Source of the DNA: Parasynechococcus marenigrum WH 8102
Lineage (GTDB): Bacteria > Cyanobacteriota > Cyanobacteriia > PCC-6307 > Cyanobiaceae
DNA length: 32,000 nucleotides
NCBI RefSeq assembly: GCF_000195975.1
Contig: NC_005070.1
Coordinates: 420,001-452,000 of the forward strand
Reading direction: 5' to 3'
Both the position numbers and the translations under genes were made by a program. Below, piece after piece: positions 10,212 to 32,000 of the stretch. How positions within the stretch are numbered: position 1 is the first letter of the stretch; each line of letters opens with the position of its first letter. The notes under the pieces are model-generated. The model had not been told where the DNA came from. It did not search any database and saw only the letters and a list, made by a program, of their open reading frames with translations.

Positions 10212-10358
10212 AAAAAAATCAACTTCCTTATATTGAATGCCTATCCAATCTTCTGCCATAGTGCCTTCTTGAAATTCTTGAGGTTGATTTAATTGACCAA
10301 TAGCTTTTTGTATCACTTCTTAATTAACTACTTTTATCTTCAAATTTAACCACAACTA

Positions 10359-18288: not shown

Positions 18289-18328
18289 ATCTTATGTTAA
18301 AATTATCCTACTTCCTCTAGATCTTTTG

Positions 18329-19429
18329 ATGCAGCCAAAATTTTGTACTCGATGTCTTGCTATGTCTACGAGACCACGCATTACTTTTAATAGGGATGGG
18401 GTATGTAATGCTTGTTTGTGGCAAGAACAAAAGTCATCTGTTGATTGGGATGATAGAAACTCAAAGCTTCTTTCTCTTCTAGATTCTCATCGATCTAAAA
18501 ATAATTCATATGATGTTATTGTTCCTGTAAGTGGTGGCAAAGACGGAAGTTATGTAGCTTACAACCTTAAACATAAGTTCAACATGAATCCTCTGTGTGT
18601 TACCGTAACTCCACCTTTAGAAACACAACTTGGTGCTCAGAATCTTAAGAACTTTATTAAATCTGGTTACGATCAAGTTTCCATAAATATCAATCCTGAA
18701 ACCATTCGCAACATTAATCGTGCGGGCTTTGTTCATCATGGTTTTCCATATTTTGGATGGCTGGTTGCCATCGTGACTTCAGTTACAAGAGTCGCTCAAC
18801 AAATGAATGTACCACTGATAATGTATGGTGAGGATGCTGAAATGGAATACGGAGGTAGCTCTGAAAAGGCAAATCTTACTACTTTCGGTATTGAATATAT
18901 GAAACGTGTCGGATTTGAGGCAGGCTATGAAAAAGTATTCTCTACGCTTGATTTATCAGACTCTGATCTTTACTGGTTGACTTTCGCTGAACAGGATAAG
19001 ACTCAAGTATTGTTCTCTCACTGGTCATACTTCGAAAATTGGGATCCTTACCGGAACTATTTAGTAGCTAAAAAGCAATGTGGTCTTCAGGAAGCTGACG
19101 ACACTAACTTCGGTACGTTTACTAACTTTGCCCAAAATGATCAGTATCTTTATGTTCTTCATACCTATTTGATGTATCTCAAATTTGGATTTGGTCGTTC
19201 AAACCAAGATGCTTGCATAGAAATAAGACGTGGTGCAATGAAAAGAGAGCAGGCTATAAATCTTGTACGTCTATATGATGGCCAGTTTCCTGATGAATTT
19301 CTTCAAATGTATTTAGAGTATTATCAAATGTCAGAAGCAGAATTTAATGCAACATTAGCTCGTTGGGTGAATAAGGATCTTTTTGAACTAAAGGATGGCT
19401 TATGGTCCCCAACTTTTACTATACAGTAA
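18329..19429 (+). CDS. N-acetyl sugar amidotransferase (WbuX/WbpG/PseA family, PP-loop ATP pyrophosphatase)
   Basis: N-terminal Cys pairs CTRC...CNAC form a zinc-ribbon-like element, and the PP-loop is VPVSGGKDGSYVA (SGGxDS type). The length (~365 aa) and the neighbouring HisH/HisF-like pair are typical of this family. The track start is a TTG at 18326, and an ATG follows at 18329. Confidence 0.85.
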   Translation: MQPKFCTRCLAMSTRPRITFNRDGVCNACLWQEQKSSVDWDDRNSKLLSLLDSHRSKNNSYDVIVPVSGGKDGSYVAYNLKHKFNMNPLCVTVTPPLETQLGAQNLKNFIKSGYDQVSININPETIRNINRAGFVHHGFPYFGWLVAIVTSVTRVAQQMNVPLIMYGEDAEMEYGGSSEKANLTTFGIEYMKRVGFEAGYEKVFSTLDLSDSDLYWLTFAEQDKTQVLFSHWSYFENWDPYRNYLVAKKQCGLQEADDTNFGTFTNFAQNDQYLYVLHTYLMYLKFGFGRSNQDACIEIRRGAMKREQAINLVRLYDGQFPDEFLQMYLEYYQMSEAEFNATLARWVNKDLFELKDGLWSPTFTIQ

Positions 19430-19438
19430 TTTATTAAT

Positions 19439-20071
19439 ATGTCAAAAATTGCAATTGTTGATTATGGAATGTGTAATCTTTGGTCCATTAAGTCTGCCAT
19501 TCAATTCATAGGTTATGATTCGATTTTGACTTCTGATCCCAAAGATATTTTAAACTCGTCTGCTATAATATTACCTGGTGTTGGTTCATTTAAGACTGGA
19601 ATGGATAATCTTTTATCTTTAGGTCTATCACAAGCAATTATTGATGCTTGTATGTTTAGGTCAATTCCAATCTTAGGAATATGCTTAGGTTTTCAATTAT
19701 TGTGCTGTAGCAGTGAAGAGCCTTCGTATACGAAAGGGCTTTCACTATTACCAATCCAGATTGTTCCACTGTGCCGACATATTGATGCTTCATTTGTTCT
19801 TCCACATGTAGGTTTTACTTCAGTTTATACATCAAAGAATGATCCTCTCTTCAAGAATATTGCTAACAAATCAGATTTTTATTTTGTTCATTCATATGGG
19901 GCGTTTAATGTTCCCCATGACTTTACTACCTACTCATATTGTAATTATGATGCAAAAATCATCTCTTCAGCCAATGTTAATCACATAATGGGTGTTCAGT
20001 TTCATCCCGAAAAGAGTCAGACCAATGGCCTTATTCTATTAGATAACTTCTTGTCTTTTTCCAATGTCTAA
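19439..20071 (+). CDS. HisH-like class I glutamine amidotransferase (WbuY-type, glycosyl amidation-associated)
   Basis: IAIVDYGMCNLWSI, ILPGVGSF, nucleophile elbow ILGICLGFQLL and GVQFHPEKS (the His/Glu of the triad). Confidence 0.85.
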   Translation: MSKIAIVDYGMCNLWSIKSAIQFIGYDSILTSDPKDILNSSAIILPGVGSFKTGMDNLLSLGLSQAIIDACMFRSIPILGICLGFQLLCCSSEEPSYTKGLSLLPIQIVPLCRHIDASFVLPHVGFTSVYTSKNDPLFKNIANKSDFYFVHSYGAFNVPHDFTTYSYCNYDAKIISSANVNHIMGVQFHPEKSQTNGLILLDNFLSFSNV

Positions 20072-20873
20072 AAAGCGTATTATCTTTGTTCTTCTTTATT
20101 GTGATGGTTTCTTTTGTTTAAGTAGAAACTTTAAGCTTCAACGCATAGGGGATTTTCGATGGCTCCAGCGCAACTATAATTTCAATTATTCAGCCACTTT
20201 TATTGACGAGCTTATCATTCTTGACATCTCAAGAAAGTCTCGAGATATAAATAAGTTTGCCACCCTATTGTATAATTTGTCCGAAAATATATTTGTTCCC
20301 ATTACTGCAGGTGGCGGTATAAGATCCTTCGAAGATGCCAAAGTTTTATTTGAAAATGGTGCTGATAAGGTCTGCTTAAATACTTCATTAATTCAATGCC
20401 CTCATGTTTCCGAGAAAATCTCTTCTGTTTATGGGCAGCAGTCTTTAGTGGCATCTATTGACTTTAAGCATGATCATGGCGATTTTAAGTTTTTTATTGA
20501 CAATGGTTTGATAGAAGTCCAGTACAATATACAAGAGCTAATATCTTTCCTAGATCCATTACCATTTTGTGAGATCCTTCTACAATCTGTTGATAGGGAT
20601 GGAACTGGTACAGGTTTTGATCTTACCTTAGCAAATACATTTAGAGATCAGTTGTCTAAACCAATTATATTGCTTGGTGGAGCAGGCCACTCTGATCACC
20701 TTGTTGAGGGTTTACTACATCAGTCAACAGATGCCGTTGCCACAGCTCATCTATTGAATTTTGTTGGCGATGGTCTCAAACTATCTCGTGAACAGGCTCA
20801 GAGACATTCTGAAGTTAGCTTGGCGAGATGGCCATTACTTAGCTCTACTTCTTTCTCCACTACTAAGCACTAG
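20064..20873 (+). CDS. HisF-like cyclase subunit (WbuZ-type, glycosyl amidation-associated)
   Basis: The (beta/alpha)8 HisF pattern is present: DELIILDI, ITAGGGIRS, GADKVCLNT, VASIDF, SVDRDGTGTGFD and LLGGAG. It overlaps the hisH-like gene by 8 nt. Confidence 0.8.
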   Translation: MSKKRIIFVLLYCDGFFCLSRNFKLQRIGDFRWLQRNYNFNYSATFIDELIILDISRKSRDINKFATLLYNLSENIFVPITAGGGIRSFEDAKVLFENGADKVCLNTSLIQCPHVSEKISSVYGQQSLVASIDFKHDHGDFKFFIDNGLIEVQYNIQELISFLDPLPFCEILLQSVDRDGTGTGFDLTLANTFRDQLSKPIILLGGAGHSDHLVEGLLHQSTDAVATAHLLNFVGDGLKLSREQAQRHSEVSLARWPLLSSTSFSTTKH

Positions 20874-21826: not shown

Positions 21827-21901
21827 ATTTAACTATTAATCGTAATCTGATTTTTCAAAGAAATATATATAGTTCGTGATTTATAAAAAATTAATTTTGC
21901 T

Positions 21902-22885
21902 CTATTTAGCCAATGGATTTTTTGGCATCTTTTTTTCGTTATTCCACCAATCATTTGTGTCCCACCTTTTTAACCGATATCTTCCTTGATCCATATGTGC
22001 TTCACCCCAATCTGTTGTTAGTCCAAACGTGATTTTATTCTCTTGCATTAATCTGATTGTCTCTTCATCAAAACTTCCGTAAGGATATGAATACCAATCC
22101 CTGACAATATATTCCCTAATCACATTTTCTAGTGCTTTGATTGATAGTTCTATATCTTGACTTTGAATCTTTTCGTTTTGGGTACCTAACCACACGTGAT
22201 TGTATCCGTGAGGGCCCATTGCATGCCCATCGACAGATAGTTTTTCTATATCTGTGTTCTTCATGTATAAAGTTTTCATTTCATGAAGATCTAACTCATC
22301 GCCAAGTTTGTTAAATAACTCATTGATTGCATATGCCCTTTCCGTTGAATCCGTAATGTCTCTTTGCAGCAATCTTTTGATTGCTAGTGTGTACCCATTG
22401 TCAAAACCATTGTCGTTGATTAATTCTTGGATGTAATTTTCTATTGACACATACTCTTTGCATGCTTTATCCTGTGTCCTTATTTTCATTTTCTCTTTCC
22501 TGATTGTTGTCTCAAGCCTTGATAGTAATTTTTCACAACTTATACCGCTATAAGTTAATAGATGAATTCTATTGACTTCTAATTCTTTTCCTTCAATGAC
22601 CTTGCCTGGGATGAAAAATAATCCCCTTACTCCGTAGCATTTTAAAATCTGAGATGCTACAACATGATCTTTGTATCCATCGTCGAATGTAAATATTACA
22701 CCTTTGTTCTTGTTGGATTTTAGGCAATCTTGCACCTTTTCGATATCATTAGGATCTATAATGTCAAAATTTTTGTTTAAGTATTCAACTTGCATTATAA
22801 ATTCTTCCACTGTTCTTGCGTATGGTTTGAATGTGCTATGATTGCTATTTCTGATGTAGTGGTATGTAATAAAGGAGATTGACAT
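21902..22885 (-). CDS. Polysaccharide deacetylase (NodB-homology domain)
   Basis: ITYHYI...F..QVEYLNKNFDII then GVIFTFDDGYKDH (TFDDG motif) and later His residues (GPHGYNHVW). It is the only minus-strand gene inside the low-GC block. Confidence 0.75.
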   Translation of the reverse strand: MSISFITYHYIRNSNHSTFKPYARTVEEFIMQVEYLNKNFDIIDPNDIEKVQDCLKSNKNKGVIFTFDDGYKDHVVASQILKCYGVRGLFFIPGKVIEGKELEVNRIHLLTYSGISCEKLLSRLETTIRKEKMKIRTQDKACKEYVSIENYIQELINDNGFDNGYTLAIKRLLQRDITDSTERAYAINELFNKLGDELDLHEMKTLYMKNTDIEKLSVDGHAMGPHGYNHVWLGTQNEKIQSQDIELSIKALENVIREYIVRDWYSYPYGSFDEETIRLMQENKITFGLTTDWGEAHMDQGRYRLKRWDTNDWWNNEKKMPKNPLAK

Positions 22886-23029
22886 GCGTAATGCGTTTTA
22901 TTTATTTTACCATATTTCTTTTACCCTCATGGTCTACCCATTTGAAATCAGATGTTAAATACATCTTAATTGACTTTCGTTAATTTATCTCCGAGCCACC
23001 ATTTCTCTTGCAACACACTCTGATTTATT
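22886..23029. promoter_or_regulatory. Divergent AT-rich spacer between the deacetylase gene (minus) and the methyltransferase-ACP cassette (plus); presumed promoters
   Basis: Inferred from arrangement only. No elements were identified with confidence. Confidence 0.25.
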
Positions 23030-23929
23030 ATGAACAATTTTGTTTCAGAGCTCCAGTCTTACTTTGCTTCAAAGTATCCATTTCTTTCAGCAAATATTCC
23101 GCGTCAACAACAGCTTCTAGGTGATTCTTGGTCCCAGGAATTTGATGGTGAATTAATCAAACATTTTGGAACTATCGAGGAGTTGCGAACCGCCGCAGAT
23201 GGATATGCCAAATTTGCTATGGATTCTCTTCTTTTGACTGCAAAGTTTCAAAAGACTAAGGACTATGATAATAAGACTTACGCCGAATGTGCCTCAGAAG
23301 TCTACCAATCTGAGTCGTATATGCATTCCTTATATCTTCCTGGAATCCTGCTTTCTCACTATTTATGGAAGCATCATTATGCTATGTATCAATTCTATAA
23401 ATCAATAGTTGTCCCAGTGTTACCTAAGTCTGGACTATTCATTGATGTTGGAGTCGGTACTGGTTTTTATTCACGTAATCTTTTACGTGATTCCCAAATG
23501 ACTGGTATTGGTTGTGATATGAGCCCTCATTCACTTTCATATACTCGATCTACTCTAAGTAAGTTCGGTACAGTCGATAAATATTCCTTTTGCTTATGTG
23601 ATTATTATCATTTCAACCAATATTTTCAATCTACTGCTGATTTCATACTTAGTATTGAGGTACTTGAACATCTTGAAGATCCTATGAAAATGCTTGAATC
23701 GCTCTACAAATCTTTGAAGCCTGGCGGGCTTGGACTTATCTCAGCTGCTGTTAATGCACCAAATGCTGACCATATTTATTTGTATAGGTCCTGCGAAGAT
23801 GTTAGACATCAATTAATCAAGGCTGGATTTGAAATTCGTCATGATACCTGTGACGAAGCTTATGAGGCTCGAACCATCGGTGAGGTCGTTCCAGTAAACT
23901 ACGGTGCGCTTGTGTGCAAGCCTTCCTGA
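23030..23929 (+). CDS. Class I SAM-dependent methyltransferase
   Basis: Motif I FIDVGVGTGFYS, then DFILSIEVLEHLEDP and LKPGGLGLIS. It has a ~130-aa N-terminal extension. Confidence 0.75.
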   Translation: MNNFVSELQSYFASKYPFLSANIPRQQQLLGDSWSQEFDGELIKHFGTIEELRTAADGYAKFAMDSLLLTAKFQKTKDYDNKTYAECASEVYQSESYMHSLYLPGILLSHYLWKHHYAMYQFYKSIVVPVLPKSGLFIDVGVGTGFYSRNLLRDSQMTGIGCDMSPHSLSYTRSTLSKFGTVDKYSFCLCDYYHFNQYFQSTADFILSIEVLEHLEDPMKMLESLYKSLKPGGLGLISAAVNAPNADHIYLYRSCEDVRHQLIKAGFEIRHDTCDEAYEARTIGEVVPVNYGALVCKPS

Positions 23930-24178
23930 TTGACTGTTATGACTGAGAACGAATTGATCTCCTTCCTGCAGCCTCACTATCGCGAGATATTGGGTGCTCC
24001 TGATCTAGTACTGACAAGATCGCTTAGTGCAAATGATGTTGAATCATGGGATTCGCTTAACCACATTCTACTGATTGTTAAATGTCAAGAACTCTTTGAT
24101 ATTACATTTACGGCTGATGAGCTTGTCTCACTCCAAAATTTTGGAGAGTTTATAGACTTAATGCTTCCCAAAATATGA
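23930..24178 (+). CDS. Acyl carrier protein-like protein
   Basis: About 80 aa with the phosphopantetheine attachment context VESWDSLNHILLI (DSL). An alternative ATG start lies at 23939. Its stop overlaps the ATG at 24175 of the next gene (ATGA). Confidence 0.7.
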   Translation: MTVMTENELISFLQPHYREILGAPDLVLTRSLSANDVESWDSLNHILLIVKCQELFDITFTADELVSLQNFGEFIDLMLPKI

Positions 24179-24566
24179 GAAATTTTAAGTGGCAGCATGT
24201 ATTCACCGACTTTGACTTAATTCTTTTGTGCAGTTAAGCACAGATTGTGCATATTTTCATGTTTCTGATGCTGTAGCTCAAAATTATGGCTTTTCTCGTC
24301 GTATCTGCCATGGAGTAATGACGCTAATGCCATTTTCTCGGCATCTAGGTATGGAATATCCCGGTGATTACTTTGTGATTCTAGAGGCATCATCTAAATT
24401 TCGCCATCCAGTTTATACAAATGATGAGCTATTGTACGAGCTTAATGAGATTTTTTTCAACGAATCGCTCGGTGTATCCAAGCTAAAAGGTTCAATTAGT
24501 CACGATACTCTTGTTTTGGTTGATGTTTCTTTTACTTGCAAGCGATTGAATTGTGAAGTTACTTAA
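24175..24566 (+). pseudogene. MaoC-like (hot-dog fold) dehydratase, apparently interrupted by a 1-nt frameshift at a T4 run (24224-24227)
   Basis: The track ORF 24228..24566 begins mid-domain (LSTDCAYFHVSDAVAQNYGFSRRICHGVMT, compared with the family pattern SGDxNPIHxD...A...GF...IAHG). The missing N-terminus (MRNFKWQHVFTDFDLIL...) is encoded from the ATG at 24175 in another frame, which stops at 24235-24237. Adding one T to the run restores a ~130-aa hot-dog protein. Confidence 0.6.
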
Positions 24567-25642
24567 GTTCCCGTCTATTCAGTACAAAACTCTTATCCAG
24601 AGCTTTATTTCCTCGACGCACCATAAGTGCCATCCTCTGTTGTCCGACGAACTTTTTAATTGGTTTTATATAAGATCTGAAATTAATTCTAAGATGTCAT
24701 TTTATATTGCTACTGAAAGTGATGCGTTGGTATCAATACTGGGATTTTATGCCTGCGATTTTTTAATTGATTCACGAATAGTACCGGGATTATGGACTGC
24801 TATGTGGTTCACTCTGCCACAATATAGAAACGGTATTGGAGCTCTATTAATGAAAGAACTAGTGGATACTAATTCGTGTAGTATGTGGCCTAGGCGCATC
24901 AAACATGAATTTACCAATAGCTAAGGCTCTTGGCTATAAAACTGTAGATAAGATATATAATTATACTTTCATTCTCGATCCAAATTCTGTTGGTAATCTT
25001 TTTAACTGGGAGCCATCTTACGCCAGCAAAACCCCCCTTCTTGATATTAAGAACTACAGCAATTTAAAGCCTTTTTGTAATCATACTTCTGTTGGATCTA
25101 CTCGTTTTTCATTTTCTCCAAGCCTCAAGCCTAAGCATAAATCCAATATAATCTTAGAAACATTCAAATCGCGTGATTATATTAAGTGGAGGTATATTGA
25201 CCATCCTTTCTTTGATTATCAGGTCAGTTTTATTACAAATGTCGATGAAAAGGTTATCTTCTATCTTGTGTGGCGTCTTGTAGATTTTAATGGAGCTTCG
25301 CTTTGTCGTGTTGTCGACTGTGATTATATTCCAGACCACACCTCAATCAATATTTTTGCTGGTTGCCTTATTTACGATCTAGTTCTTCACCTTCAGAGTA
25401 TGGATGTGAGTTATATTGATTGCTTTACCAATAATTTATTTTTGTCTCAAGCCCTCTTGAATGTTGGTTTTTTATGTGATGTTGACTCAATTTTTCCAAA
25501 TCTAATTGACCCTCTTGACTTTACACGCCCTAAGCTTAATTGTGAGTATTATGTAGATCCAAACATTTGCTCTTGCCCTACCATGATTAACATGCGTGGT
25601 GATGGCGATCAAGATCGACCTAATCAGAGTATTTTTTCATGA
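24553..25642 (+). pseudogene. GNAT-like acyltransferase split into two ORFs (24553..24924 and 24905..25642) by an apparent +1 frameshift near 24875-24881
   Basis: ORF1 ends just after an acyl-CoA-motif-like PQYRNGIGALLMKELVDTN. The second frame is open from 24863 and continues with VVCGLGASNMNLPIAKALGYKTV, the expected next strand and helix of a GNAT fold. The joined protein would be about 363 aa. Confidence 0.5.
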
Positions 25643-27312
25643 AAATAGATTACTCACTTTCAGAAATTTCTGCATTCCGTTCTATTCGGGATAATCAGAC
25701 TCTAGATTCTTCTTCTAGACGCATCCGTTTTGTGTCTAATTATTCTATTCAATATCTTGAATGGGCTTTGGCTGGTCACTTATCGTTCGATTTGCGAGCT
25801 CATTTTTTTATTGATGAATCTTATTTTGATGACTTCTTTACTTATACTCCAGACCCCAGCAATCTTTCAGACATCCTTGTTATTACTCTTAGTTTAGATC
25901 TTCTCAAATCTTCCCCTTTTTTAGAGGGTTCTTCTGATCCTTCTTGTATACACGACTATATAGTTTCAAGGCTTAACTTCTTTAGTTCCTTTGCATTTCA
26001 GCATGTTTATTTTGTTTTGCCCGAATTGGATTCTGAACCTGTATCGATTTTCACATCTTCTTTTGATTGGAACTTTGTGTTTCGTCCAAAGCTTTACCAT
26101 TACTCGATTAAATGTGGGATAGTTCCAATTGTTATTGATGATATCTTTATTAACGGGTCTAAGCCTATGACTAACAGTTTTCTAAGAACTAGCTCCATTG
26201 CAATAGATCCTTTTTACGTTGGTTCTGTTGCCCTTCGTATTTCTATGGAGGTTTTAAATCGAATTTTACCTATAACAAAGCTGATAGCTGTTGACTTTGA
26301 TAATACTCTTTGGCAGGGTACTATCGCAGAAGATGGTGTTGAAAATATTAAATTGCCCGATAACTATTTTCGCTTCCAACATTTTCTATTGGAAGCCGTT
26401 CGCAAAGGAATTGTTCTTATTGGTGTTACTAAAAATTATCCATCTGTGGTAAATAATGTTTTTGATATTCGTACTGACTTTCCTTTGAGTACGTCTTCTT
26501 TTTATAAAATATACTCAGGCTGGGACAGTAAATACTCTTATATCTTCAATTGTCTTGGAGAACTAAACCTAACCAACTCTGGCATTATTTTTCTTGATGA
26601 TTCATCTCTAGAGCGTGAAGAGATGAACATCTATTCATCCGAGATTGAAGCCCCTGTCTTGGACTTTTCTTGTGATATTGTTCAACAGCTTTTATTCAAT
26701 TCTTGCGTTAGATTGACCTCTTCAACCGCTGAGGATGAGAATAGAAATAAATTTTATCTGGAAAACTCAAAGAGAAACTTACTAGTCGACCGGCATCTGA
26801 CGAAGTCTGAGATTAACAATAAACTTCAATTGTGTTTACATTCTTTTGTTGTATCAGACCCTTCAGATATTACCCGTGCAATTCAACTTATTAATAAAAC
26901 AAATCAATTTAATGTTTCTACCTCCCGTATCACTAAAGAGCAGTTCGATAATTTTTCTGCTCAAGGTCACGTTTTTCTTGCATATCGTCTTTCAGATTCT
27001 GTTGGCGATTACGGTATTATTGCGATTGTGCAGATTCAACCTTGTCCATTCAGTATCATTTCTTTTGTGATGTCTTGTCGAGCTATGGGTAGAAAAGTCG
27101 AATCTGCAATATTCTTTGATCTGCAAAGCCGCTTTCACCCCGACTATTTTAAACTTATCTATATAGAGTCACCGAAAAATAAAATTCTTCCAGATATCTT
27201 TGCTGAACTTCAATTTAACTTAGATGGAAATATGTTTACTGCAGATGCGGCCTTGTTTGCACGTAATGAATGTTTATTCTCCATGAATTTATCTCAAGAT
27301 TTGGTGCCTTGA
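25639..27312 (+). CDS. FkbH-like HAD-IIIC family protein (candidate glyceryl-ACP-forming phosphatase/loader)
   Basis: VDFDNTLWQGTIAEDG matches the HAD-IIIC/FkbH motif DxDNTLWxGxxGEDG. LINKTNQFNVSTSR matches the conserved NQFN segment. There is an ATGA overlap with the upstream GNAT-like gene. Confidence 0.8.
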   Translation: MKIDYSLSEISAFRSIRDNQTLDSSSRRIRFVSNYSIQYLEWALAGHLSFDLRAHFFIDESYFDDFFTYTPDPSNLSDILVITLSLDLLKSSPFLEGSSDPSCIHDYIVSRLNFFSSFAFQHVYFVLPELDSEPVSIFTSSFDWNFVFRPKLYHYSIKCGIVPIVIDDIFINGSKPMTNSFLRTSSIAIDPFYVGSVALRISMEVLNRILPITKLIAVDFDNTLWQGTIAEDGVENIKLPDNYFRFQHFLLEAVRKGIVLIGVTKNYPSVVNNVFDIRTDFPLSTSSFYKIYSGWDSKYSYIFNCLGELNLTNSGIIFLDDSSLEREEMNIYSSEIEAPVLDFSCDIVQQLLFNSCVRLTSSTAEDENRNKFYLENSKRNLLVDRHLTKSEINNKLQLCLHSFVVSDPSDITRAIQLINKTNQFNVSTSRITKEQFDNFSAQGHVFLAYRLSDSVGDYGIIAIVQIQPCPFSIISFVMSCRAMGRKVESAIFFDLQSRFHPDYFKLIYIESPKNKILPDIFAELQFNLDGNMFTADAALFARNECLFSMNLSQDLVP

Positions 27313-27521: not shown

Positions 27522-28502
27522 ATGAGGATTGCTATTGCTGGCACGGGTTCTATTGGACGTCGCCATGTTGAGCAACTAATGCTTTTAATCCCTGATATTA
27601 GTTGGGTTTTTGTTCGTGATTGTGTTCGCAATGATGTCTTCGCTGAGTCTCTAAAGGCTGAATTGGTCCCTAATCTGCAAGCAGCTTTGGATATCCCTCT
27701 TGATGCTTTGATTATCGCCAATCCTTCGTCTCTTCACGCTGAGTTTGTGTTAAGTGCCTTACAGTTTGGGTTGCCAATGTATATAGAGAAACCAGTGGCA
27801 ATAAGCTTGTTGCAAATAGAGTCTCTACAGCAATGTCTTTCTGCTGCCAGTAAGGTGCCAGTTACCCAGGTTGGCTGTAACCTTAGGTTTCTACCTTCCC
27901 TGCAGCGGCTTAAGCAACTTATTTGTGCTGGTGTCATAGGACGAGTGGTGAGGGCTTCCTTTGATGCTGGTCAGTGGCTACCCGATTGGCGACCCCAGCA
28001 AGATCATCGTGAAAGCTATAGTGCTGATCCCGCTCGGGGAGGGGGGGTATTGTTTGACCTGATTCATGAAATTGATGCCGCTTATTGGATTCTTGGTGAA
28101 TTAACCCCTTTGGCTTGTGCTGTCGAGAATGTTCCGCGTCTTGAGATAAAGTCAGAGTCAGTTGCAACAGCCCTTTTGCGGGCTCATAGTGGTGCACTTG
28201 TCCAGATTGGCCTAGACTATGTCTCTCGATCTCCCCTGCGTCGTTATCAGTTTGTGGGTGAAACTGGCACCTTGGTTTGGGACTTGTCTGCAAAAGTCCT
28301 GTCTCTTCATACTGCTGATAGAAGTCAAATTTTAGATTCTGGCGATAGTGGCTTTGATGTTTCTTCTACTTACTACTCTGCAATGAAGGCATTCGTCGAG
28401 AGCTTGCTGACGCAACAGCAGCAAGTTCACCCTCTGTCTGAGGGCCTTGCTGTTTCAGCAATTACAGTTGGTCTTAAACGAATGGCATTAGTCCAATGTT
28501 GA
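27522..28502 (+). CDS. Gfo/Idh/MocA-family NAD(P)-dependent oxidoreductase
   Basis: The N-terminal Rossmann motif is MRIAIAGTGSIGRRHV, followed by the EKP motif (YIEKPVA). The length is typical at ~325 aa. Confidence 0.8.
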   Translation: MRIAIAGTGSIGRRHVEQLMLLIPDISWVFVRDCVRNDVFAESLKAELVPNLQAALDIPLDALIIANPSSLHAEFVLSALQFGLPMYIEKPVAISLLQIESLQQCLSAASKVPVTQVGCNLRFLPSLQRLKQLICAGVIGRVVRASFDAGQWLPDWRPQQDHRESYSADPARGGGVLFDLIHEIDAAYWILGELTPLACAVENVPRLEIKSESVATALLRAHSGALVQIGLDYVSRSPLRRYQFVGETGTLVWDLSAKVLSLHTADRSQILDSGDSGFDVSSTYYSAMKAFVESLLTQQQQVHPLSEGLAVSAITVGLKRMALVQC

Positions 28503-29197
28503 CGATTGCAACCATTTGTGCTCGTGGAGGCTCCCAAGGTGTTCCGGGCAAAAACATACGCCCGTTGCTTGGACAGCCATTGATTGTTCACACCATTCAG
28601 CAGGCTATTTCCCATCTTGAGATCGATCGCGTCTTTGTTTCAACTGACTCAGTCGACATTGCCGCTGTGGCTCGTTCCGCTGGTGCAGAGGTACCATTTA
28701 TTCGTCCAAGCGAGTTGTCAGGTCATTCTGCACCGAAGCATCCAGTGATAGAACACCTGGTAGATTGGGTTGCTGAACATGTTGGTCCTGTATCACGTAT
28801 AGTTGATCTTGATCCAACGTCGCCTCTCCGCAACGCTTCTGATATTTCCGCTTGTTTGGATCTTCTTGATGCGAACACCGATGTTGTAATCACAGGCTAT
28901 GAAGCTGAGAAAAATCCTTATTTCAACATGGTAGAGCTGAGCGGAGATCACGGTTGTGTTCAAGTCGTCAAGACCCTTCCTGCTGATGTTACATCTCGTC
29001 AGCAAGCCCCCCGTGTTTACGCTATGAATGCTTCGATTTATTGTTGGCATTATCATTCTCTCGCCCTCGGGCTATGGCAGGGAAGAGCGAGGTTACATGT
29101 GATGCCGCGAGTTCGTTCTGTTGATATCGATGAGCTAATAGATTTTCAACTGGTTGAATTGCTCATGCGTCAACAACAGCAGGAGCTTAATCGATGA
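28496..29197 (+). CDS. Acylneuraminate (nonulosonate) cytidylyltransferase, NeuA/LegF family
   Basis: ICARGGSQGVPGKNIRPLLGQPLIVHTI matches the IPARGGSKGIPxKN motif of CMP-NeuAc synthetases. DPTSPLR is also present. It overlaps the upstream gene by 7 nt. Confidence 0.85.
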   Translation: MLTIATICARGGSQGVPGKNIRPLLGQPLIVHTIQQAISHLEIDRVFVSTDSVDIAAVARSAGAEVPFIRPSELSGHSAPKHPVIEHLVDWVAEHVGPVSRIVDLDPTSPLRNASDISACLDLLDANTDVVITGYEAEKNPYFNMVELSGDHGCVQVVKTLPADVTSRQQAPRVYAMNASIYCWHYHSLALGLWQGRARLHVMPRVRSVDIDELIDFQLVELLMRQQQQELNR

Positions 29198-30189
29198 ACG
29201 TACTTGTCACTGGTGCTGATGGTTTTATCGGTTCTCACCTTGTTGAGGCATTATTAGTTTCTGGACATCATGTGCGTGCTTTTTGTCTTTATAACTCCAA
29301 CGGTAGTTGGGGCTGGTTGGATACTTTGCCGGAATCCGTCAAGGCTGAGCTAGAGGTTGTTCTGGGTGATATCCGTGATCCTCTCTTTGTCAGAGAAGCA
29401 ATGACCGGCTGTGATCAGGTTTTCCACCTGGCAGCCTTGATTGCTATTCCTTACAGTTATCTTGCCCCCGCTAGCTATGTGGATACCAACATTCATGGCA
29501 CCTTGAATGTTGTCCAGGCTGCCCGTGATTTGGGTGTTAGCCGCGTTGTTCATACCTCAACTTCTGAAACCTACGGCTCTGCCCAGTTTGTACCGATTAC
29601 AGAAGAGCATCCGCAGGTTGGTCAGTCGCCCTATGCCGCCAGCAAGATCGGTGCCGATCAGATAGCACTGAGCTATTGGCGTAGTTTTCAAACACCTGTT
29701 TCAGTTTTACGACCGTTCAATACCTACGGCCCACGTCAGAGTGCCCGTGCTGTTATCCCGACGATCATCACGCAAGTCGCCGCTGGCCAGCGTCAAATCC
29801 GTTTAGGGGCTCTCTCGCCAACGCGTGATTTCAACTTTGTTGCTGATACCTGTGCTGCCTTTCAGGCCATCGCTGATTGTGATCCTGCACTTGGTCAGGT
29901 TGTGAATGCTGCCAGCAACTTTGAGATTTCAATTGGGGATACGGCTTCGTTGATCGGTGAGGTGATGAATGTTCAGCTAGAGATCTTGACGGATGAACAG
30001 AGAATGCGGCCGGAGGGTTCAGAGGTGAATCGTTTGTTTGGTGATAACACCCTCTTGCGTCAGCTCACTGGATGGAAGCCGGTTTATGGCGGCCTCGATG
30101 GCTTTCGACGTGGTTTGGCTCAAACCGCAGAATGGTTCAGTGATCCTGCCAACCTTGCGCGTTATCGCCCTGGCACTTATGCGGTCTGA
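29194..30189 (+). CDS. legB: NAD-dependent sugar-nucleotide 4,6-dehydratase, LegB-like
   Basis: VLVTGADGFIGSHLVEALL..GH.VRAF..YNSNGSWGWLD closely resembles my recollection of the Campylobacter LegB N-terminus (YNSFNxWGxL). STSETYG and YAASK (YxxxK) are present. The symbol is tentative. Confidence 0.65.
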   Translation: MNVLVTGADGFIGSHLVEALLVSGHHVRAFCLYNSNGSWGWLDTLPESVKAELEVVLGDIRDPLFVREAMTGCDQVFHLAALIAIPYSYLAPASYVDTNIHGTLNVVQAARDLGVSRVVHTSTSETYGSAQFVPITEEHPQVGQSPYAASKIGADQIALSYWRSFQTPVSVLRPFNTYGPRQSARAVIPTIITQVAAGQRQIRLGALSPTRDFNFVADTCAAFQAIADCDPALGQVVNAASNFEISIGDTASLIGEVMNVQLEILTDEQRMRPEGSEVNRLFGDNTLLRQLTGWKPVYGGLDGFRRGLAQTAEWFSDPANLARYRPGTYAV

Positions 30190-30192
30190 GAC

Positions 30193-31404
30193 ATGACAAC
30201 TCTTGGAGCTGCCAACGTGGATTCTGTTCTTGAGGCCATTCAACAGGTGGTGGGTCCCAGCTCAAAGGAGCATCCCATCAGCTTGCATGAACCTGATTTT
30301 ACTGGCACCCAGGCCTGGGCCTACGTTAAGGAGTGCCTTGATTCCGGCTGGGTGAGCACAGCAGGCAGCTGGGTGAGTCGTTTTGAGGAAGAGCTGTGCA
30401 CCTTTACTGGTGCAAGCCATGCGGTGGTTGTCAGCAATGGCACTGTCGCGCTGCGCTTGGCTCTGCATCTGGTGGGGGTTGGTTACAGCGATGAAGTGTT
30501 GTTACCTCCGTTGAGTTTTGTTGCTACGGCCAATGCCGTTGCTCATCTGGGGGCTTTTCCTCATTTTGTTGACGTCGCGCCTAACGCGCTAGGGATGTGT
30601 CCCATTTCCTTGGCTGCTCGTCTGGAGACCATTGCGGAGCGACGCGAAGACATTCTGGTGAATAGAGAAACAGGGCGTCGTATAGCTGCGGTGTTGCCTG
30701 TGCATGTGTTCGGCCACCCGGCTGAGGTAGATCAGCTCCTGGCAGTGTCTGACTCCTGGGGGCTACCACTGGTTGAAGATGCTGCTGAAGCCCTCGCGAG
30801 CTGGCGAGGAAGCACTCATTGCGGTCTCTTTGGGGCGGTGGGCACACTCAGCTTCAACGGAAACAAGTTGATTACAACTGGAGGTGGTGGTGCTCTGCTC
30901 ACCAATGACGCCGACTTAGCCAAGCGTGCACGTCACTTGTCCACTACCGCAAAGCAGCCTCACCCTTGGGCTTTTGACCACGACGCCATCGGCTGGAATG
31001 ACCGACTGCCCAACCTCAATGCCGCACTTGGTGTAGCCCAGCTAGAGGATTTGGATCGTCGGCTTGATGCCAAACGTCAGCTTGCTCAGCGCTATGCAGA
31101 TGCCTTTGCTGATTTGGAGGGTGTGGAGTTGGTGGCCGAACCAACAGATTGCATCAGTAACCATTGGTTGGTGAGCTTACGCTTTACGGCAGAAGATCCA
31201 CGAGCTGTACAAGCTGAGCGGTTGCAGCTACTCGAACGTGCACACTCAGTAGGTCTGTTGCTGCGCCCAATCTGGACCCCATTGCATCAGCTCCCCATTT
31301 ACGAGGCTTGCCCTGCAGGATCACTTGTTGTGTCCGAGAACCTGGCACCGCGTCTCGTCAACCTGCCAAGTAGCCCTCAGCTCCTGGACGGATGTGCGGC
31401 ATGA
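30193..31404 (+). CDS. legC: DegT/DnrJ/EryC1/StrS-family PLP-dependent sugar aminotransferase, LegC-like
   Basis: Family pattern including SFNGNKLITTGGGGALLT (PLP-lysine segment) and HVFGHP. It sits between the dehydratase and acetyltransferase genes, as in leg/pgl-type pathways. The symbol is tentative. Confidence 0.7.
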   Translation: MTTLGAANVDSVLEAIQQVVGPSSKEHPISLHEPDFTGTQAWAYVKECLDSGWVSTAGSWVSRFEEELCTFTGASHAVVVSNGTVALRLALHLVGVGYSDEVLLPPLSFVATANAVAHLGAFPHFVDVAPNALGMCPISLAARLETIAERREDILVNRETGRRIAAVLPVHVFGHPAEVDQLLAVSDSWGLPLVEDAAEALASWRGSTHCGLFGAVGTLSFNGNKLITTGGGGALLTNDADLAKRARHLSTTAKQPHPWAFDHDAIGWNDRLPNLNAALGVAQLEDLDRRLDAKRQLAQRYADAFADLEGVELVAEPTDCISNHWLVSLRFTAEDPRAVQAERLQLLERAHSVGLLLRPIWTPLHQLPIYEACPAGSLVVSENLAPRLVNLPSSPQLLDGCAA

Positions 31405-32000
31405 AGCAGCTTCTGCTGATTGGTTGCGGTGGCCATGCTCGATCACTCATTGAGCTGATTGAATCGTCTTCGGAGTGGCAGATATATGGGTTGGTGGGAT
31501 TGCCAGAGCAGGTTGGTCGTCGAGTTCTCGGTTACCCGGTGATTGGCTGTGATGACGACTTACCATCGCTGCGTGAGAAATGCTCGGCTGCGGTGTTGGC
31601 GATCGGTCAGGTACCAGATGCTGCTCCACGTGTTCGCCTTGCCGAACAGCTTGATCAGTTTGGTTTTCAATTCCCTGTTTTGATATCACCCCATGCGGTG
31701 GTTAGCAGTCATGTGCAGCTTGGCCTTGGAACTACCTTGGGCCATGGTGTGATCGTGAATGCAGGCGCGGTTATCGGTGATCATTGCATCATTAATAGTC
31801 GCGCATTGGTTGAACACGATGTGCAAATAGGTCATCACTGTCATATAAGCACCGGAGTTTTGGTTAATGGAGGAGTACAGATTGGATCCGAAAGCTTCAT
31901 TGGCAGTGGTGCCATTATTCGAGAAGGGCTGATTTTGCCTCCCCTATCGGTGATTGGGGCCGGTAAACGCGTTATGGGTTGGCCTTTAAGGGATCAATGA
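31392..32000 (+). CDS. NeuD/PglD-family hexapeptide-repeat sugar N-acetyltransferase (LegH-like)
   Basis: The N-terminus is LLLIGCGGHARSLIELI (Rossmann-like NeuD head). Left-handed beta-helix hexapeptide repeats follow (IGDHCIINSRALVEHDVQIGHHCHISTGVLVNGGVQIGSESFIGSGAII). The stop codon is the last three bases of the window. Confidence 0.8.
   Translation: MCGMKQLLLIGCGGHARSLIELIESSSEWQIYGLVGLPEQVGRRVLGYPVIGCDDDLPSLREKCSAAVLAIGQVPDAAPRVRLAEQLDQFGFQFPVLISPHAVVSSHVQLGLGTTLGHGVIVNAGAVIGDHCIINSRALVEHDVQIGHHCHISTGVLVNGGVQIGSESFIGSGAIIREGLILPPLSVIGAGKRVMGWPLRDQ

What the first reader, a model, noticed from the sequence alone, without database searches (positions are those of the whole stretch)
21902..27312. 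Deacetylase + methyltransferase-ACP-MaoC-GNAT-FkbH cassette: an ACP-dependent, glycerate-derived N-acyl decoration system for an amino sugar
Five plus-strand genes are tightly coupled. The ACP start follows the methyltransferase stop directly, there are ATGA overlaps at 24175 and 25639, and there is a 14-nt overlap at 24553. They are transcribed divergently from a NodB-type deacetylase. FkbH-like HAD-IIIC proteins are known from polyketide pathways (methoxymalonyl-ACP, tetronates) to take a glycolytic C3 unit and load glyceryl onto an ACP. Here the ACP is stand-alone and is accompanied by a hot-dog dehydratase, a methyltransferase and a GNAT-like transferase, with no ketosynthase. A coherent reading has three steps:
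- The deacetylase frees an amine on an (acetamido) sugar.
- FkbH and the ACP build a glyceroyl unit, which is optionally dehydrated or O-methylated.
- The GNAT-like enzyme transfers it to the sugar amine.
O-methyl-glyceroyl groups have been reported on Campylobacter pseudaminic acid, but I am not aware that an FkbH/ACP route for such decoration has been worked out.
Basis: inference. Interest (0 to 1): 0.75.

Follow-up and report, generated by a model that had tools for sequence, protein, structure and literature searches.

The report
Glycerate-derived acyl cassette for legionaminic acid
A six-gene block in the marine cyanobacterium Synechococcus WH8102 most likely removes an acetyl group from a sialic-acid-like surface sugar and replaces it with a three-carbon acyl group built on a small carrier protein; the same uncharacterised block sits beside such sugar genes in many bacterial phyla.

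Summary
The genes are real. The window is the Synechococcus sp. WH8102 reference genome (SYNW0438-0442), inside a low-GC surface-polysaccharide island. HMMs, conserved motifs and two AlphaFold models confirm six proteins:
- a CE4 deacetylase;
- a class I methyltransferase;
- an ACP;
- a MaoC dehydratase;
- a 362-aa tandem-GNAT acyltransferase;
- a full three-domain FkbH.

In the window, the MaoC and GNAT genes are each broken by a 1-bp indel. These indels occur only in the 2003 reference. More than 60 resequenced assemblies carry intact genes, and all cassette genes are under purifying selection (dN/dS 0.03-0.22).

The tandem GNAT defines a large unannotated family. In 63 loci from many phyla it sits with an ACP (41 loci), FkbH (37), a deacetylase (29) and nonulosonic-acid genes. 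FkbH is sometimes replaced by FabH plus a ketoreductase. The five-gene order MT-ACP-MaoC-GNAT-FkbH recurs beside legionaminic-acid genes in unrelated marine bacteria.

No chemistry has been tested and the exact acyl group is open. The searchable literature calls the genes for N-glyceroyl nonulosonic acids 'elusive'.

The parts
21902..22885 (-). CE4/NodB-type deacetylase, SYNW0438, 327 aa. Proposed to free one amino group of the nonulosonic acid or of its precursor.
   Evidence: PF01522, E 2.8e-15. TFDD and H-x-x-x-H are invariant in 30/30 relatives from related loci. A homologue lies within 8 kb of the tandem GNAT in 29/63 loci. dN/dS is 0.22 against L070.
22886..23029 (.). 144-bp AT-rich divergent intergenic region between the deacetylase and the methyltransferase operon.
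   Evidence: Read from the sequence. One promoter-like site lies at 22879-22908, but the scan is at chance level: 22 sites found against 21.8 expected.
23030..23929 (+). Class I SAM methyltransferase, SYNW0439, 299 aa. Proposed to tailor the ACP-bound C3 unit.
   Evidence: Methyltransf_11/25/31 at about 1e-13; weak BioC, UbiG and CmoM similarity. It holds the same position (MT-ACP-MaoC-GNAT-FkbH) in L005, L006, L007, L068, L070 and a JGI contig. dN/dS is 0.11.
23939..24178 (+). Stand-alone acyl carrier protein, 79 aa from ATG 23939 (an alternative TTG start lies at 23930). It is not annotated in the reference genome.
   Evidence: W-D-S39 is invariant in 48/48 relatives. The family profile hits 42 solved ACPs, best 2LML at 2.2e-27. 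dN/dS is 0.033. The single sequence is below the Pfam cut-off.
24175..24566 (+). MaoC-type hot-dog dehydratase, 130 aa when intact. In the window it is frameshifted by a missing G after 24219.
   Evidence: PF01575 scores 34.5 bits against a cut-off of 27 on the intact form. The indel and the premature stop are shown. The intact form is on 110 contigs. Asp24 and His29 of the hydratase-2 motif are invariant in 22/22. dN/dS is 0.12.
24553..25642 (+). Tandem-GNAT acyltransferase, 362 aa when intact. The reference annotates it as SYNW0440 plus CAE06956, split by an extra G at 24876. Proposed to transfer the acyl group from the ACP to the sugar amine.
   Evidence: GNAT motif A (R92-x-G94-x-G96-A97) and a C-terminal DGDQDRPN motif. 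AF2 model: pLDDT 75.7, pTM 0.77. Best Foldseek matches are 3n7z, N-myristoyltransferases and Eis2, at E 1e-11 to 1e-9. The family has 3,623 cluster representatives. dN/dS is 0.13.
25639..27312 (+). FkbH-like glyceryl transferase/phosphatase, 557 aa (CAE06957 / WP_083810616). It has three parts: an N-terminal domain, a HAD-IIIC phosphatase and a C-terminal GNAT-like domain carrying Cys480.
   Evidence: TIGR01686 scores 184 bits against a cut-off of 146.65, E 3.9e-54. D219, D221 and T223, and S479-C480-R481, are conserved in 155-156 of 156 sequences. AF2 pLDDT is 89.7. 3SLR matches at E 9.6e-20, and the C-terminal domain matches GNAT acetyltransferases.
18326..20873 (+). Context: WbuX / HisH / WbuZ amidotransferase set, which converts an N-acetyl group into an acetamidino group.
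   Evidence: TIGR03573 scores 411 bits, TIGR01855 185 bits and TIGR03572 279 bits. The same set lies next to FkbH and the tandem GNAT in L009, L014, L043, L049 and L068.
27522..32000 (+). Context: legionaminic-acid genes. In order: a GFO/IDH/MocA oxidoreductase, a PseF/LegF-like CMP-transferase, LegB, LegC and LegH (31401-32000). LegI, LegG and a PtmE-like nucleotidyltransferase follow beyond the window.
   Evidence: LegB TIGR04180 scores 518 bits against a cut-off of 475. LegC TIGR04181 scores 495 against 420. Pfam labels for the downstream genes come from L001.

Best explanation
This is an 'acyl-editing' cassette for a legionaminic-acid-type nonulosonic acid. The proposed steps are:
1. FkbH takes a phosphoglyceryl unit from glycolysis. 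By analogy with the characterised family this is 1,3-bisphosphoglycerate. FkbH dephosphorylates it and loads glyceryl onto the dedicated 79-aa ACP.
2. The MaoC dehydratase removes the 3-hydroxyl, giving 2-hydroxyacryloyl-ACP (equivalent to pyruvoyl-ACP). The methyltransferase then fixes this intermediate. The most likely product is 2-methoxyacryloyl-ACP. The alternatives are O-methylglyceroyl-ACP or a C-methylated 2-oxobutanoyl-ACP.
3. The divergently transcribed CE4 deacetylase removes one N-acetyl group from legionaminic acid or from a nucleotide-linked precursor.
4. The tandem-GNAT enzyme transfers the acyl group from the ACP to the freed amine.
5. The neighbouring WbuX/HisH/WbuZ set converts the other N-acetyl group to acetamidino. 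The predicted surface sugar is therefore Leg carrying one acetamidino group and one C3-derived acyl group. This parallels Pse5Am7Gra of Tannerella forsythia and the 5-N-(2,3-di-O-methylglyceroyl)-Pse of Campylobacter jejuni.

Shown here by computation only:
- gene and domain identities;
- catalytic motifs and predicted folds;
- intact frames in the living strain;
- purifying selection;
- conserved linkage to nonulosonic-acid genes.

Inferred: every chemical step, the order of steps, which nitrogen is acylated, and the exact acyl group.
For: **Parts**
- FkbH has the full three-domain build, with a GNAT-like C-terminal domain carrying the invariant Cys.
- The acyltransferase folds like N-acyltransferases built from two GNAT domains.

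**Linkage**
- The most distant sequence relative of the GNAT (28% identity, L005) lies in the same arrangement: a divergent deacetylase, then MT-ACP-MaoC-GNAT-FkbH, followed by LegB, LegC, LegH, NeuB, LegG and a nucleotidyltransferase.
- Two look-ups that started from FkbH relatives (28% identity) gave the same five-gene order. They lay next to Leg genes, WbuZ/HisH and a deacetylase.
- In 63 loci from Proteobacteria, Bacillota, Verrucomicrobiota, Acidobacteriota, Gemmatimonadota, Fibrobacterota, Elusimicrobiota and Patescibacteria, the tandem GNAT has these within 8 kb:
  - ACP in 41;
  - FkbH in 37;
  - a deacetylase in 29;
  - MaoC in 21;
  - a CMP-transferase in 20;
  - LegG in 16;
  - NeuB in 14.
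- Among the 41 loci with at least 6 kb on both sides, 34 have FkbH or a FabH-like gene, and only one has both.

**Tailoring logic**
- MaoC comes with a short-chain ketoreductase in 15 of 21 loci and with the methyltransferase in 3 of 21.
- This mirrors two polyketide loading modules: DH-KR-FkbH-ACP (bryostatin, from my memory) and DH-MT-FkbH-ACP (OocJ, PMC4552970).

**Function in the organism**
- All cassette genes have dN/dS of 0.03-0.22 against an 85%-identical relative whose frames are intact.

**Literature**
- In cyanobacterial peptides, carrier-bound glycerate is O-methylated and then joined through an amide bond (PMC13122637).
- N-glyceroyl and di-O-methylglyceroyl nonulosonic acids exist. 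In C. jejuni the acyl group replaces an N-acetyl group (PMC3068675).
- A C. jejuni strain whose fkbH-domain gene cj1302 is a pseudogene lacks these sugars (PMC7099621).
Against: - There is no biochemical or glycan-structure evidence for WH8102. No paper in the searchable library links WH8102 to nonulosonic acids or names SYNW0438-0443.
- In the window as given, two genes are frameshifted.
- GNAT motif A normally binds the CoA pyrophosphate, so the donor could be an acyl-CoA rather than an acyl-ACP.
- CE4 enzymes can also act as O-deacetylases.
- Only 22 of the 41 fully flanked loci showed a nonulosonic-acid gene within 10 kb. The search used single-sequence phmmer with Leg-type queries, and several Oscillospiraceae loci showed none.
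- The methyltransferase gives no hint of its substrate. Its PDB matches are generic.
- The locus also makes other sugars that could be the acceptor: GDP-fucose and a second CMP-transferase module.
Confidence: 0.65

Rival explanations
1. The chemistry is the same, but the acceptor is different. The acyl group goes onto another amino sugar or another polymer made by this island. Alternatively it is attached as an O-ester rather than an amide.
For: The island also encodes GDP-fucose synthesis, a second KdsB-like CMP-transferase with an aldolase and a HAD hydrolase, and several proteins with no family match. CE4 enzymes include O-deacetylases. Some tandem-GNAT loci showed no nonulosonic-acid gene within 10 kb.
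Against: The cassette lies directly beside Leg or Pse-type genes in unrelated phyla, often between them. The closest structural relatives of the GNAT are N-acyltransferases. The known glyceroyl-type decorations of nonulosonic acids are N-linked and replace an acetyl group.
Confidence: 0.12
2. There is no deacetylate-then-reacylate cycle. The tandem GNAT acylates the 4-amino pathway intermediate directly, competing with or replacing LegH. The deacetylase has a separate role, for example trimming the finished polysaccharide.
For: 34 of 63 tandem-GNAT loci showed no deacetylase within 8 kb. The aminotransferase step of the Leg pathway already produces a free amine (established pathway knowledge).
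Against: A deacetylase is present in 29 of 63 loci and is adjacent on the same strand in 8. WH8102 keeps a LegH gene as well. In the cassette variant closest to WH8102 the deacetylase is always present.
Confidence: 0.15
3. In WH8102 the cassette is a decaying, non-functional remnant. Two of its genes are pseudogenes.
For: The window shows two frameshifts, and both lie inside the cassette. They are the only two differences in 16.4 kb, which is unlikely for random sequencing errors.
Against: The split products are on record only on the single NCBI reference contig. The intact 130-aa and 362-aa products are on 110 and 62 contigs from resequencing runs. The intact frames are conserved, with dN/dS of 0.12-0.13, in an 85%-identical relative.
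Confidence: 0.05
4. FkbH here is only a HAD phosphatase of sugar-phosphate metabolism, for example a nonulosonate-9-phosphate phosphatase. In that case the ACP, MaoC and GNAT genes are unrelated to it.
For: The HAD core resembles KDN-9-phosphate and Kdo-8-phosphate phosphatases in fold.
Against: The protein matches the full FkbH model end to end, profile positions 1-320 of 323. It has the family-specific C-terminal domain with an invariant S-C-R. The gene lies next to an ACP and the tandem GNAT on the same strand, within 4.5 kb, in 27 loci.
Confidence: 0.03

Closest known systems
FkbH / OzmB-type glyceryl-ACP loaders of polyketide and non-ribosomal peptide pathways (methoxymalonyl-ACP, tetronates, glycerate starter units)
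   Same: - It has the full FkbH domain with DxDxT and the conserved Cys.
- It has a dedicated stand-alone ACP.
- The dehydratase and methyltransferase accessories parallel the DH-MT-FkbH-ACP module of OocJ (PMC4552970).
- They also parallel the FkbH-OMT loading module of the suomilides (PMC13122637).
   Different: - There is no ketosynthase, condensation domain, FkbK/FkbI dehydrogenase or FabH-like tetronate synthase in the window.
- The unit is handed to a tandem-GNAT transferase inside a glycan locus, not to an assembly line.
- The dehydratase is a free MaoC hot-dog protein, not a PKS DH domain.
Campylobacter jejuni NCTC 11168 flagellin glycosylation: 5-N-(2,3-di-O-methylglyceroyl)-pseudaminic acid, Cj1295 and the fkbH-domain gene cj1302
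   Same: - A glycerate-derived, O-methylated acyl group replaces an N-acetyl group on a nonulosonic acid.
- A hydrolase is proposed to remove the acetyl group first (PMC3068675).
- An FkbH-domain gene, ACP genes and a methyltransferase lie in the locus. cj1302 is cited from PMC7099621; the other gene names are from my memory.
   Different: - The proposed de-acetylase there is aminopeptidase-like (Cj1295), not CE4.
- I know of no tandem-GNAT homologue in that locus.
- The sugar there is Pse on flagellin. Here it is Leg in a polysaccharide island of a non-flagellated cyanobacterium.
- The role of cj1302 has not been tested in the papers I could read.
Tannerella forsythia Pse5Am7Gra (5-N-acetimidoyl-7-N-glyceroyl-pseudaminic acid)
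   Same: The predicted product type is the same: a nonulosonic acid with one acetamidino group and one glycerate-derived N-acyl group.
   Different: - The T. forsythia genes for the glyceroyl group are reported as 'elusive', with no candidate identified (PMC6120980, PMC6388019).
- Whether T. forsythia has this cassette was not tested here.
ACP-dependent N-acylation of other amino sugars: the 3-deoxy-L-glycero-tetronyl group on perosamine in Vibrio cholerae O1 (RfbK-O), and the 3-hydroxybutyryl group on viosamine in Pseudomonas syringae flagellin (both from my memory)
   Same: A small carrier protein and acyl-building enzymes are encoded inside a glycan locus. They supply an unusual N-acyl group for an amino sugar.
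   Different: - Those systems use different acyl-building enzymes (ligase/reductase or FabH/FabG types) and different transferases.
- Neither uses FkbH or a tandem GNAT.
Tandem-GNAT N-acyltransferases: Eis, N-myristoyltransferase, and the structural-genomics entries 3n7z and 2i00
   Same: They share the two-GNAT fold, and GNAT motif A lies in the first domain.
   Different: - Sequence identity is only 8-13% and TM-scores are about 0.45-0.55.
- No Pfam or NCBIfam family covers the protein.
- It has its own C-terminal DGDQDRPN motif.
- Its genomic partner is an ACP, whereas those enzymes use acyl-CoA.

Membership tests
FkbH family (TIGR01686; glyceryl transferase/phosphatase) | End-to-end match to the FkbH domain model above the curated cut-off | tested here: met
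   184 bits against a cut-off of 146.65, covering profile positions 1-320 of 323.
FkbH family (TIGR01686; glyceryl transferase/phosphatase) | HAD-IIIC phosphatase motif I, DxDxT | tested here: met
   The sequence reads VDFDNT. D219 and D221 are conserved in 156/156 and T223 in 155/156. TIGR01681 scores 44.2 bits against a cut-off of 35.75.
FkbH family (TIGR01686; glyceryl transferase/phosphatase) | Conserved cysteine in the C-terminal domain. Its role as the acyl-enzyme site is from my memory of the OzmB work and was not verified in a paper here. | tested here: met
   S479 and C480 are conserved in 155/156 sequences and R481 in 156/156. The C-terminal domain model matches GNAT acetyltransferases.
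FkbH family (TIGR01686; glyceryl transferase/phosphatase) | Loads glyceryl from 1,3-bisphosphoglycerate onto a partner ACP | not testable with these tools
   Only the genomic pairing with an ACP was seen.
Acyl carrier protein | Protein of about 80 aa with the phosphopantetheine serine in a D-S-L motif | tested here: met
   W37-D38-S39 is invariant in 48/48. The family profile hits 42 solved ACPs, best at 2.2e-27.
Acyl carrier protein | Single-sequence Pfam PP-binding score above the gathering cut-off | tested here: not met
   15.9 bits against a cut-off of 20.8. The profile-level evidence outweighs this.
MaoC / (R)-specific hydratase-dehydratase hot-dog family | Pfam match above cut-off, and the Asp and His of the hydratase-2 motif | tested here: met
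   34.5 bits against a cut-off of 27 on the intact 130-aa form. D24 and H29 are invariant in 22/22. WH8102 reads TDCAYFH where relatives read GDxxPxH.
MaoC / (R)-specific hydratase-dehydratase hot-dog family | Uninterrupted reading frame in the window | tested here: not met
   A stop falls at 24237 after a 1-bp deletion. The frame is intact on 110 other contigs.
GNAT superfamily (tandem-GNAT N-acyltransferases) | Motif A, (Q/R)-x-x-G-x-(G/A), and a GNAT fold | tested here: met
   R92, G94, G96 and A97 are invariant in alignment A1. Foldseek E-values are 1e-11 to 1e-9 against 3n7z, N-myristoyltransferases and Eis2.
GNAT superfamily (tandem-GNAT N-acyltransferases) | Pfam GNAT family score above cut-off | tested here: not met
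   Acetyltransf_9 scores 15.7-19.1 bits against a cut-off of 25. There was no NCBIfam hit.
Carbohydrate esterase family 4 (NodB-type metal-dependent deacetylases) | Pfam PF01522 above cut-off, with motif 1 (TFDD) and motif 2 (H-x-x-x-H) | tested here: met
   56.8 bits against a cut-off of 23.1. Both motifs are invariant in 30/30.
Methoxymalonyl-ACP pathway (FkbG/H/I/J/K) | The two dehydrogenases (FkbK-type and FkbI-type) that oxidise glyceryl-ACP to hydroxymalonyl-ACP | tested here: not met
   No acyl-CoA or 3-hydroxyacyl-CoA dehydrogenase was found among the window ORFs. This is not a member.
Tetronate 'glycerate utilisation operon' | A FabH-like tetronate-forming ketosynthase next to FkbH and the ACP | tested here: not met
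   No FabH- or FabF-like segment was found in any frame of the window at E<=1. The FabH probe did find 33 ORFs in other loci; the FabF probe found nothing anywhere and so is unvalidated.
Legionaminic acid biosynthesis locus | LegB and LegC equivalogs, together with a PglD-like acetyltransferase, NeuB, a hydrolysing 2-epimerase, a CMP-transferase and a PtmE-like nucleotidyltransferase | tested here: met
   LegB scores 518 bits against a cut-off of 475, and LegC 495 against 420. Pfam labels for the downstream genes come from L001. PseF-type CMP-transferase similarity is 109 bits, which is below the PseF cut-off.

The most novel reading that the evidence does not exclude
The tandem-GNAT family would define a widespread, modular and so far undescribed 'N-acyl editing' system for nonulosonic acids. 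It would combine three parts:
- a deacetylase;
- a dedicated ACP;
- a swappable acyl-building module.

The acyl-building modules seen, with their predicted products, are:
- FkbH alone, giving glyceroyl;
- FkbH with MaoC and a ketoreductase, giving lactyl;
- FkbH with MaoC and a methyltransferase, giving an enol-ether 2-methoxyacryloyl group or another new C3/C4 group;
- FabH with a ketoreductase, giving 3-hydroxybutyryl.

On this reading the WH8102 variant puts a chemically unprecedented acyl group on legionaminic acid at the surface of an abundant marine cyanobacterium. There it could shape recognition by phages and grazers.
Probability: 0.3. Interest if true: 0.85.

Novelty: new variant of a known kind. 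Interest (0 to 1): 0.7.

Why it matters
N-glyceroyl, O-methylglyceroyl and hydroxybutyryl groups on pseudaminic and legionaminic acids are known from pathogens such as Tannerella forsythia and Campylobacter jejuni. They shape immune recognition and phage recognition. The papers I could read state that the genes for the glyceroyl group are 'elusive' (PMC6120980) and that knowledge of the modifying enzymes is 'scarce' (PMC6388019).

This cassette offers three things:
- It gives a concrete, testable gene set and mechanism.
- Its tandem-GNAT protein is a searchable marker, with about 3,600 cluster representatives, for finding such decorations across bacteria.
- It extends FkbH chemistry from polyketide and peptide assembly lines to surface glycans.

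In Synechococcus the cassette lies in a low-GC island of the kind linked to phage and grazer escape. It may therefore bear on surface variation in a major ocean primary producer.

It also shows that the WH8102 reference annotation of this region (SYNW0440/0441, the MaoC fragment and the missing ACP) should be corrected.

Tried and rejected
- **Promoter and terminator scan of 21700-27700.** It found 22 promoter-like sites against 21.8 expected by chance, so it says nothing.
- **The search for related loci with the 40-sequence alignment A2.** A1 was used instead.
- **Third homologue search, with A2.** It returned only 12 proteins, none from a named organism.
- **PDB sequence searches.** The methyltransferase and the deacetylase gave only generic or marginal hits, so they do not indicate a substrate.
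- **Literature.**
  - No paper names SYNW0438-0443.
  - No paper links WH8102 with nonulosonic acids.
  - FkbH and 'polysaccharide' co-occur in only three papers. Only the C. jejuni FlaGrab paper is relevant.
  - Two broad searches were swamped by common terms.
  - Two nonulosonic-acid cluster surveys (Clostridium, Vibrionaceae) mention no ACP, GNAT or deacetylase accessory genes.
- **Models considered and rejected.**
  - Methoxymalonyl-ACP and tetronate pathways: the dehydrogenases and the FabH-like enzyme are absent.
  - Phase variation by homopolymer slippage as the cause of the two indels: neither indel lies in a homopolymer run (ACTTA[G]ATTC and AATTC[G]TGTAG).
- **Not done.**
  - I could not scan the rest of the WH8102 genome for PKS genes.

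Full report
**Where the window comes from**

The FkbH-like protein is identical to CAE06957 / WP_083810616 of Parasynechococcus marenigrum (Synechococcus sp.) WH8102. The neighbouring products are SYNW0438, SYNW0439 and SYNW0440.

The region lies in a low-GC island. GC is 0.32-0.42 from about 7000 to 27500, in a genome whose flanks run at 0.56-0.62. The island is a surface-polysaccharide locus. In order it contains:
- Wzc-like and Wza-like export genes;
- gmd and fcl;
- an aldolase, a KdsB-like CMP-transferase and a HAD hydrolase;
- a PglK/MsbA-like ABC exporter;
- methyltransferases and an SDR;
- a WbuX/HisH/WbuZ amidotransferase set;
- the cassette;
- a legionaminic-acid pathway.

In the Leg pathway, LegB scores 518 bits against a cut-off of 475, and LegC scores 495 against 420. 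LegH, LegI, LegG and a PtmE-like nucleotidyltransferase follow, the last three just beyond the window.

**Checking the observation**

- The methyltransferase stop is followed directly by a TTG. The start conserved in relatives is the ATG nine bases further on.
- ATGA overlaps lie at 24175 and 25639.
- There is a 14-nt overlap at 24553.
- The deacetylase is divergent, across a 144-bp spacer.

Four domain calls pass curated cut-offs: the deacetylase, the methyltransferase, MaoC and FkbH. The ACP and GNAT calls are sub-threshold as single sequences.

- The frame from ATG 24175 stops at 24237.
- The GNAT is split into 123-aa and 245-aa ORFs.

**The frameshifts belong to the reference sequence, not to the organism**

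- Four public assemblies that carry the identical FkbH protein align to the window over 16,363 bp. There are no mismatches and exactly two 1-bp gaps: a G missing after 24219 and an extra G at 24876.
- The split products are on record on one contig only, the 2.43-Mb NCBI genome.
- The intact 130-aa MaoC is on 110 contigs and the intact 362-aa GNAT on 62.
- A diverged relative, L070 (FkbH 85% identical), has the same gene order with both frames intact.
- Against L070, every cassette gene is under purifying selection. dN/dS values are:
  - ACP: 0.033;
  - methyltransferase: 0.11;
  - MaoC: 0.12;
  - GNAT: 0.13;
  - FkbH: 0.13;
  - deacetylase: 0.22.

I therefore treat the cassette as intact and functional in WH8102. 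The two indels are either reference errors or mutations of the sequenced clone. It is odd that the only two differences in 16 kb both fall inside the cassette, and I cannot explain that.

**The parts**

- **FkbH.**
  - It matches the full model.
  - In 156 relatives the DxDxT phosphatase motif and a Ser-Cys-Arg motif are essentially invariant.
  - Its AlphaFold model (pLDDT 89.7) has three parts. An N-terminal domain and a HAD core superpose on 3SLR (E 9.6e-20). A C-terminal domain matches GNAT acetyltransferases and carries the conserved cysteine.
- **ACP.** W-D-S is invariant in 48 relatives. A profile of the family finds 42 solved ACPs, the best at 2.2e-27.
- **MaoC.** It keeps the Asp and His of the hydratase-2 motif at the canonical spacing.
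- **Deacetylase.** It keeps TFDD and HxxxH.
- **The 362-aa protein.**
  - It has GNAT motif A and its own C-terminal DGDQDRPN motif.
  - Its model (pLDDT 75.7, pTM 0.77) is a tandem GNAT. The closest solved folds are Eis-type acetyltransferases and N-myristoyltransferases.
  - No Pfam or NCBIfam family covers it. An exhaustive profile search finds 3,623 cluster representatives, 172 of them at E<=1e-30. It is a large unannotated family.

**Comparative genomics**

This is the main evidence for function.

The most distant word-search relative of the GNAT (28% identity) lies in a locus with the same layout. A divergent deacetylase is followed by MT-ACP-MaoC-GNAT-FkbH, and then by LegB, LegC, LegH, NeuB, LegG and a nucleotidyltransferase. 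Two look-ups that started instead from FkbH relatives gave the same five-gene order beside Leg genes, WbuZ/HisH and a deacetylase. One of these relatives was seen on 18 marine contigs.

A scan of species-representative genomes returned 62 loci from at least eight phyla. I called ORFs in these loci and labelled them with phmmer, using the WH8102 and L005 proteins as queries.

| Gene within 8 kb of the tandem GNAT | Loci (of 63) |
|---|---|
| ACP | 41 |
| FkbH | 37 |
| Deacetylase | 29 |
| MaoC | 21 |
| CMP-transferase | 20 |
| LegG | 16 |
| NeuB | 14 |
| FabH-like KS III | 12 |

Further points from these loci:
- Of the 41 loci with at least 6 kb on both sides, 34 have FkbH or FabH, and only one has both.
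- An unbiased Pfam scan of 148 unlabelled neighbours put short-chain reductases first (25 members). It also found flagellin genes.
- Within 5 kb the loci sort into types:
  - FkbH alone: 15;
  - FkbH with MaoC and an SDR: 14;
  - FabH with an SDR: 9;
  - FkbH with MaoC and a methyltransferase: 3 (WH8102, L068, L070 and the JGI contig belong to this type as well).

The caveats are these:
- A few loci are near-duplicates (L005/L007, L036/L048, L037/L038).
- Single-sequence searches with Leg-type queries under-detect distant Pse genes.

**Mechanism**

The pattern fits a modular system. A dedicated ACP receives a small acyl group from a swappable builder. A tandem GNAT delivers that group to an amino group of a nonulosonic acid. 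A deacetylase often frees the amine first.

- **Tailoring.**
  - MaoC is almost always accompanied by either a ketoreductase or the methyltransferase.
  - This suggests that both act on the dehydration product, 2-hydroxyacryloyl-ACP (equivalent to pyruvoyl-ACP).
  - Reduction of that intermediate would give lactyl.
  - Methylation would give 2-methoxyacryloyl or, if it falls on carbon, 2-oxobutanoyl.
  - The same domain sets occur in polyketide loading modules: DH-MT-FkbH-ACP in OocJ (PMC4552970) and DH-KR-FkbH-ACP in bryostatin (my memory).
  - Carrier-bound O-methylation of glycerate followed by amide formation is proposed for cyanobacterial suomilides (PMC13122637).
- **Product.** With the neighbouring WbuX/HisH/WbuZ set, the predicted WH8102 sugar is legionaminic acid with one acetamidino group and one glycerate-derived acyl group.

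All of these chemical steps are inferred.

**Comparison with what is known**

- N-glyceroyl Pse (T. forsythia) and 5-N-(2,3-di-O-methylglyceroyl) Pse (C. jejuni 11168) are established structures. In C. jejuni the acyl group replaces the N5 acetyl group, and a hydrolase, Cj1295, was proposed to remove that acetyl group (PMC3068675).
- The only link between FkbH and a glycan that I found is one remark. The fkbH-domain gene cj1302 is a pseudogene in a C. jejuni strain that also lacks the dimethylglyceroyl sugars (PMC7099621).
- Every other FkbH paper in the library concerns polyketides or peptides.
- A 2026 nucleotide-sugar survey mentions a glyceroyl-type CMP-nonulosonate but does not mention acyl carrier proteins in that context.
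- The library covers open-access papers only, so earlier work in subscription journals cannot be excluded.

**Verdict**

The target can be narrowed to legionaminic acid, and the cassette can be generalised to a family of loci.

I file it as a new variant of known kinds (FkbH/ACP chemistry; ACP-dependent N-acylation of amino sugars). It is not a member of the methoxymalonyl or tetronate pathways, whose defining enzymes are absent.

Confidence that this is an ACP-dependent acyl decoration system for the nonulosonic acid is about 0.65. Confidence in any particular acyl structure is much lower.

Noticed in passing
window 24219/24220 and 24876: The WH8102 reference differs from at least four independent assemblies by exactly two 1-bp indels in 16.4 kb, and both lie inside the cassette. 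As a result the reference annotation splits the GNAT gene (SYNW0440 plus CAE06956), truncates MaoC and omits the ACP. Why both differences fall in adjacent genes is unexplained.
   Followed up: yes
window 7233-12161: A 540-aa DRE-TIM (HMGL/DmpG-like) aldolase, a KdsB-like CMP-transferase (292 bits against a cut-off of 255) and a HAD-IA hydrolase are followed by a PglK/MsbA-like ABC exporter. This could be a second module for a CMP-activated acidic sugar in the same island.
   Followed up: no
window 17104-18288 and 20876-21826: Two ORFs (394 aa and 316 aa) have no Pfam or NCBIfam hit. Both are conserved in the diverged relative L070, and the 316-aa ORF has dN/dS of 0.065. No homologue of the 316-aa ORF was found in the other 63 loci. 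They are candidate glycosyltransferases or nonulosonate transferases.
   Followed up: partly
window 1-32000: There is a sharp drop in GC, from 0.56-0.62 to 0.32-0.42, between about 7000 and 27500. The Leg genes downstream rise gradually from 0.41 to 0.56. The cassette block and the Leg genes may therefore have different histories.
   Followed up: no
L020, L024, L037, L038, L044, L047, L050, L053, L061, L063, L065, L067: In Lachnospiraceae, Eubacterium and Roseburia genomes the tandem GNAT sits with an ACP, FabH-like KS III genes and short-chain reductases instead of FkbH. The pooled Pfam scan of neighbours found flagellin genes in 2 ORFs and PF02522 (aminoglycoside 3-N-acetyltransferase-like) in 4; which loci carry them was not resolved. 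This suggests a 3-hydroxybutyryl-type version of the same system in flagellin glycosylation islands.
   Followed up: partly
L017, L040, L045, L046, L052, L055, L057, L060, L062, L066: Oscillospiraceae-type loci carry FkbH-ACP-MaoC-SDR-GNAT as a compact operon, with a predicted lactyl product. No nonulosonic-acid gene was detected within 10 kb with my Leg-type queries. The acceptor there is unknown.
   Followed up: no
L068 1295-3556: A marine contig encodes a fused 753-aa protein with Epimerase_2, NeuB and SAF domains (a LegG-LegI fusion) just upstream of the same five-gene cassette.
   Followed up: no
window 13161-15856: Upstream of the SDR lie a weak methyltransferase-like ORF, a Methyltransf_24/TylF-like O-methyltransferase (E 9.7e-17) and a weak 2OG-Fe(II) oxygenase-like ORF. 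These are further tailoring enzymes of the island and are unrelated to the cassette.
   Followed up: no
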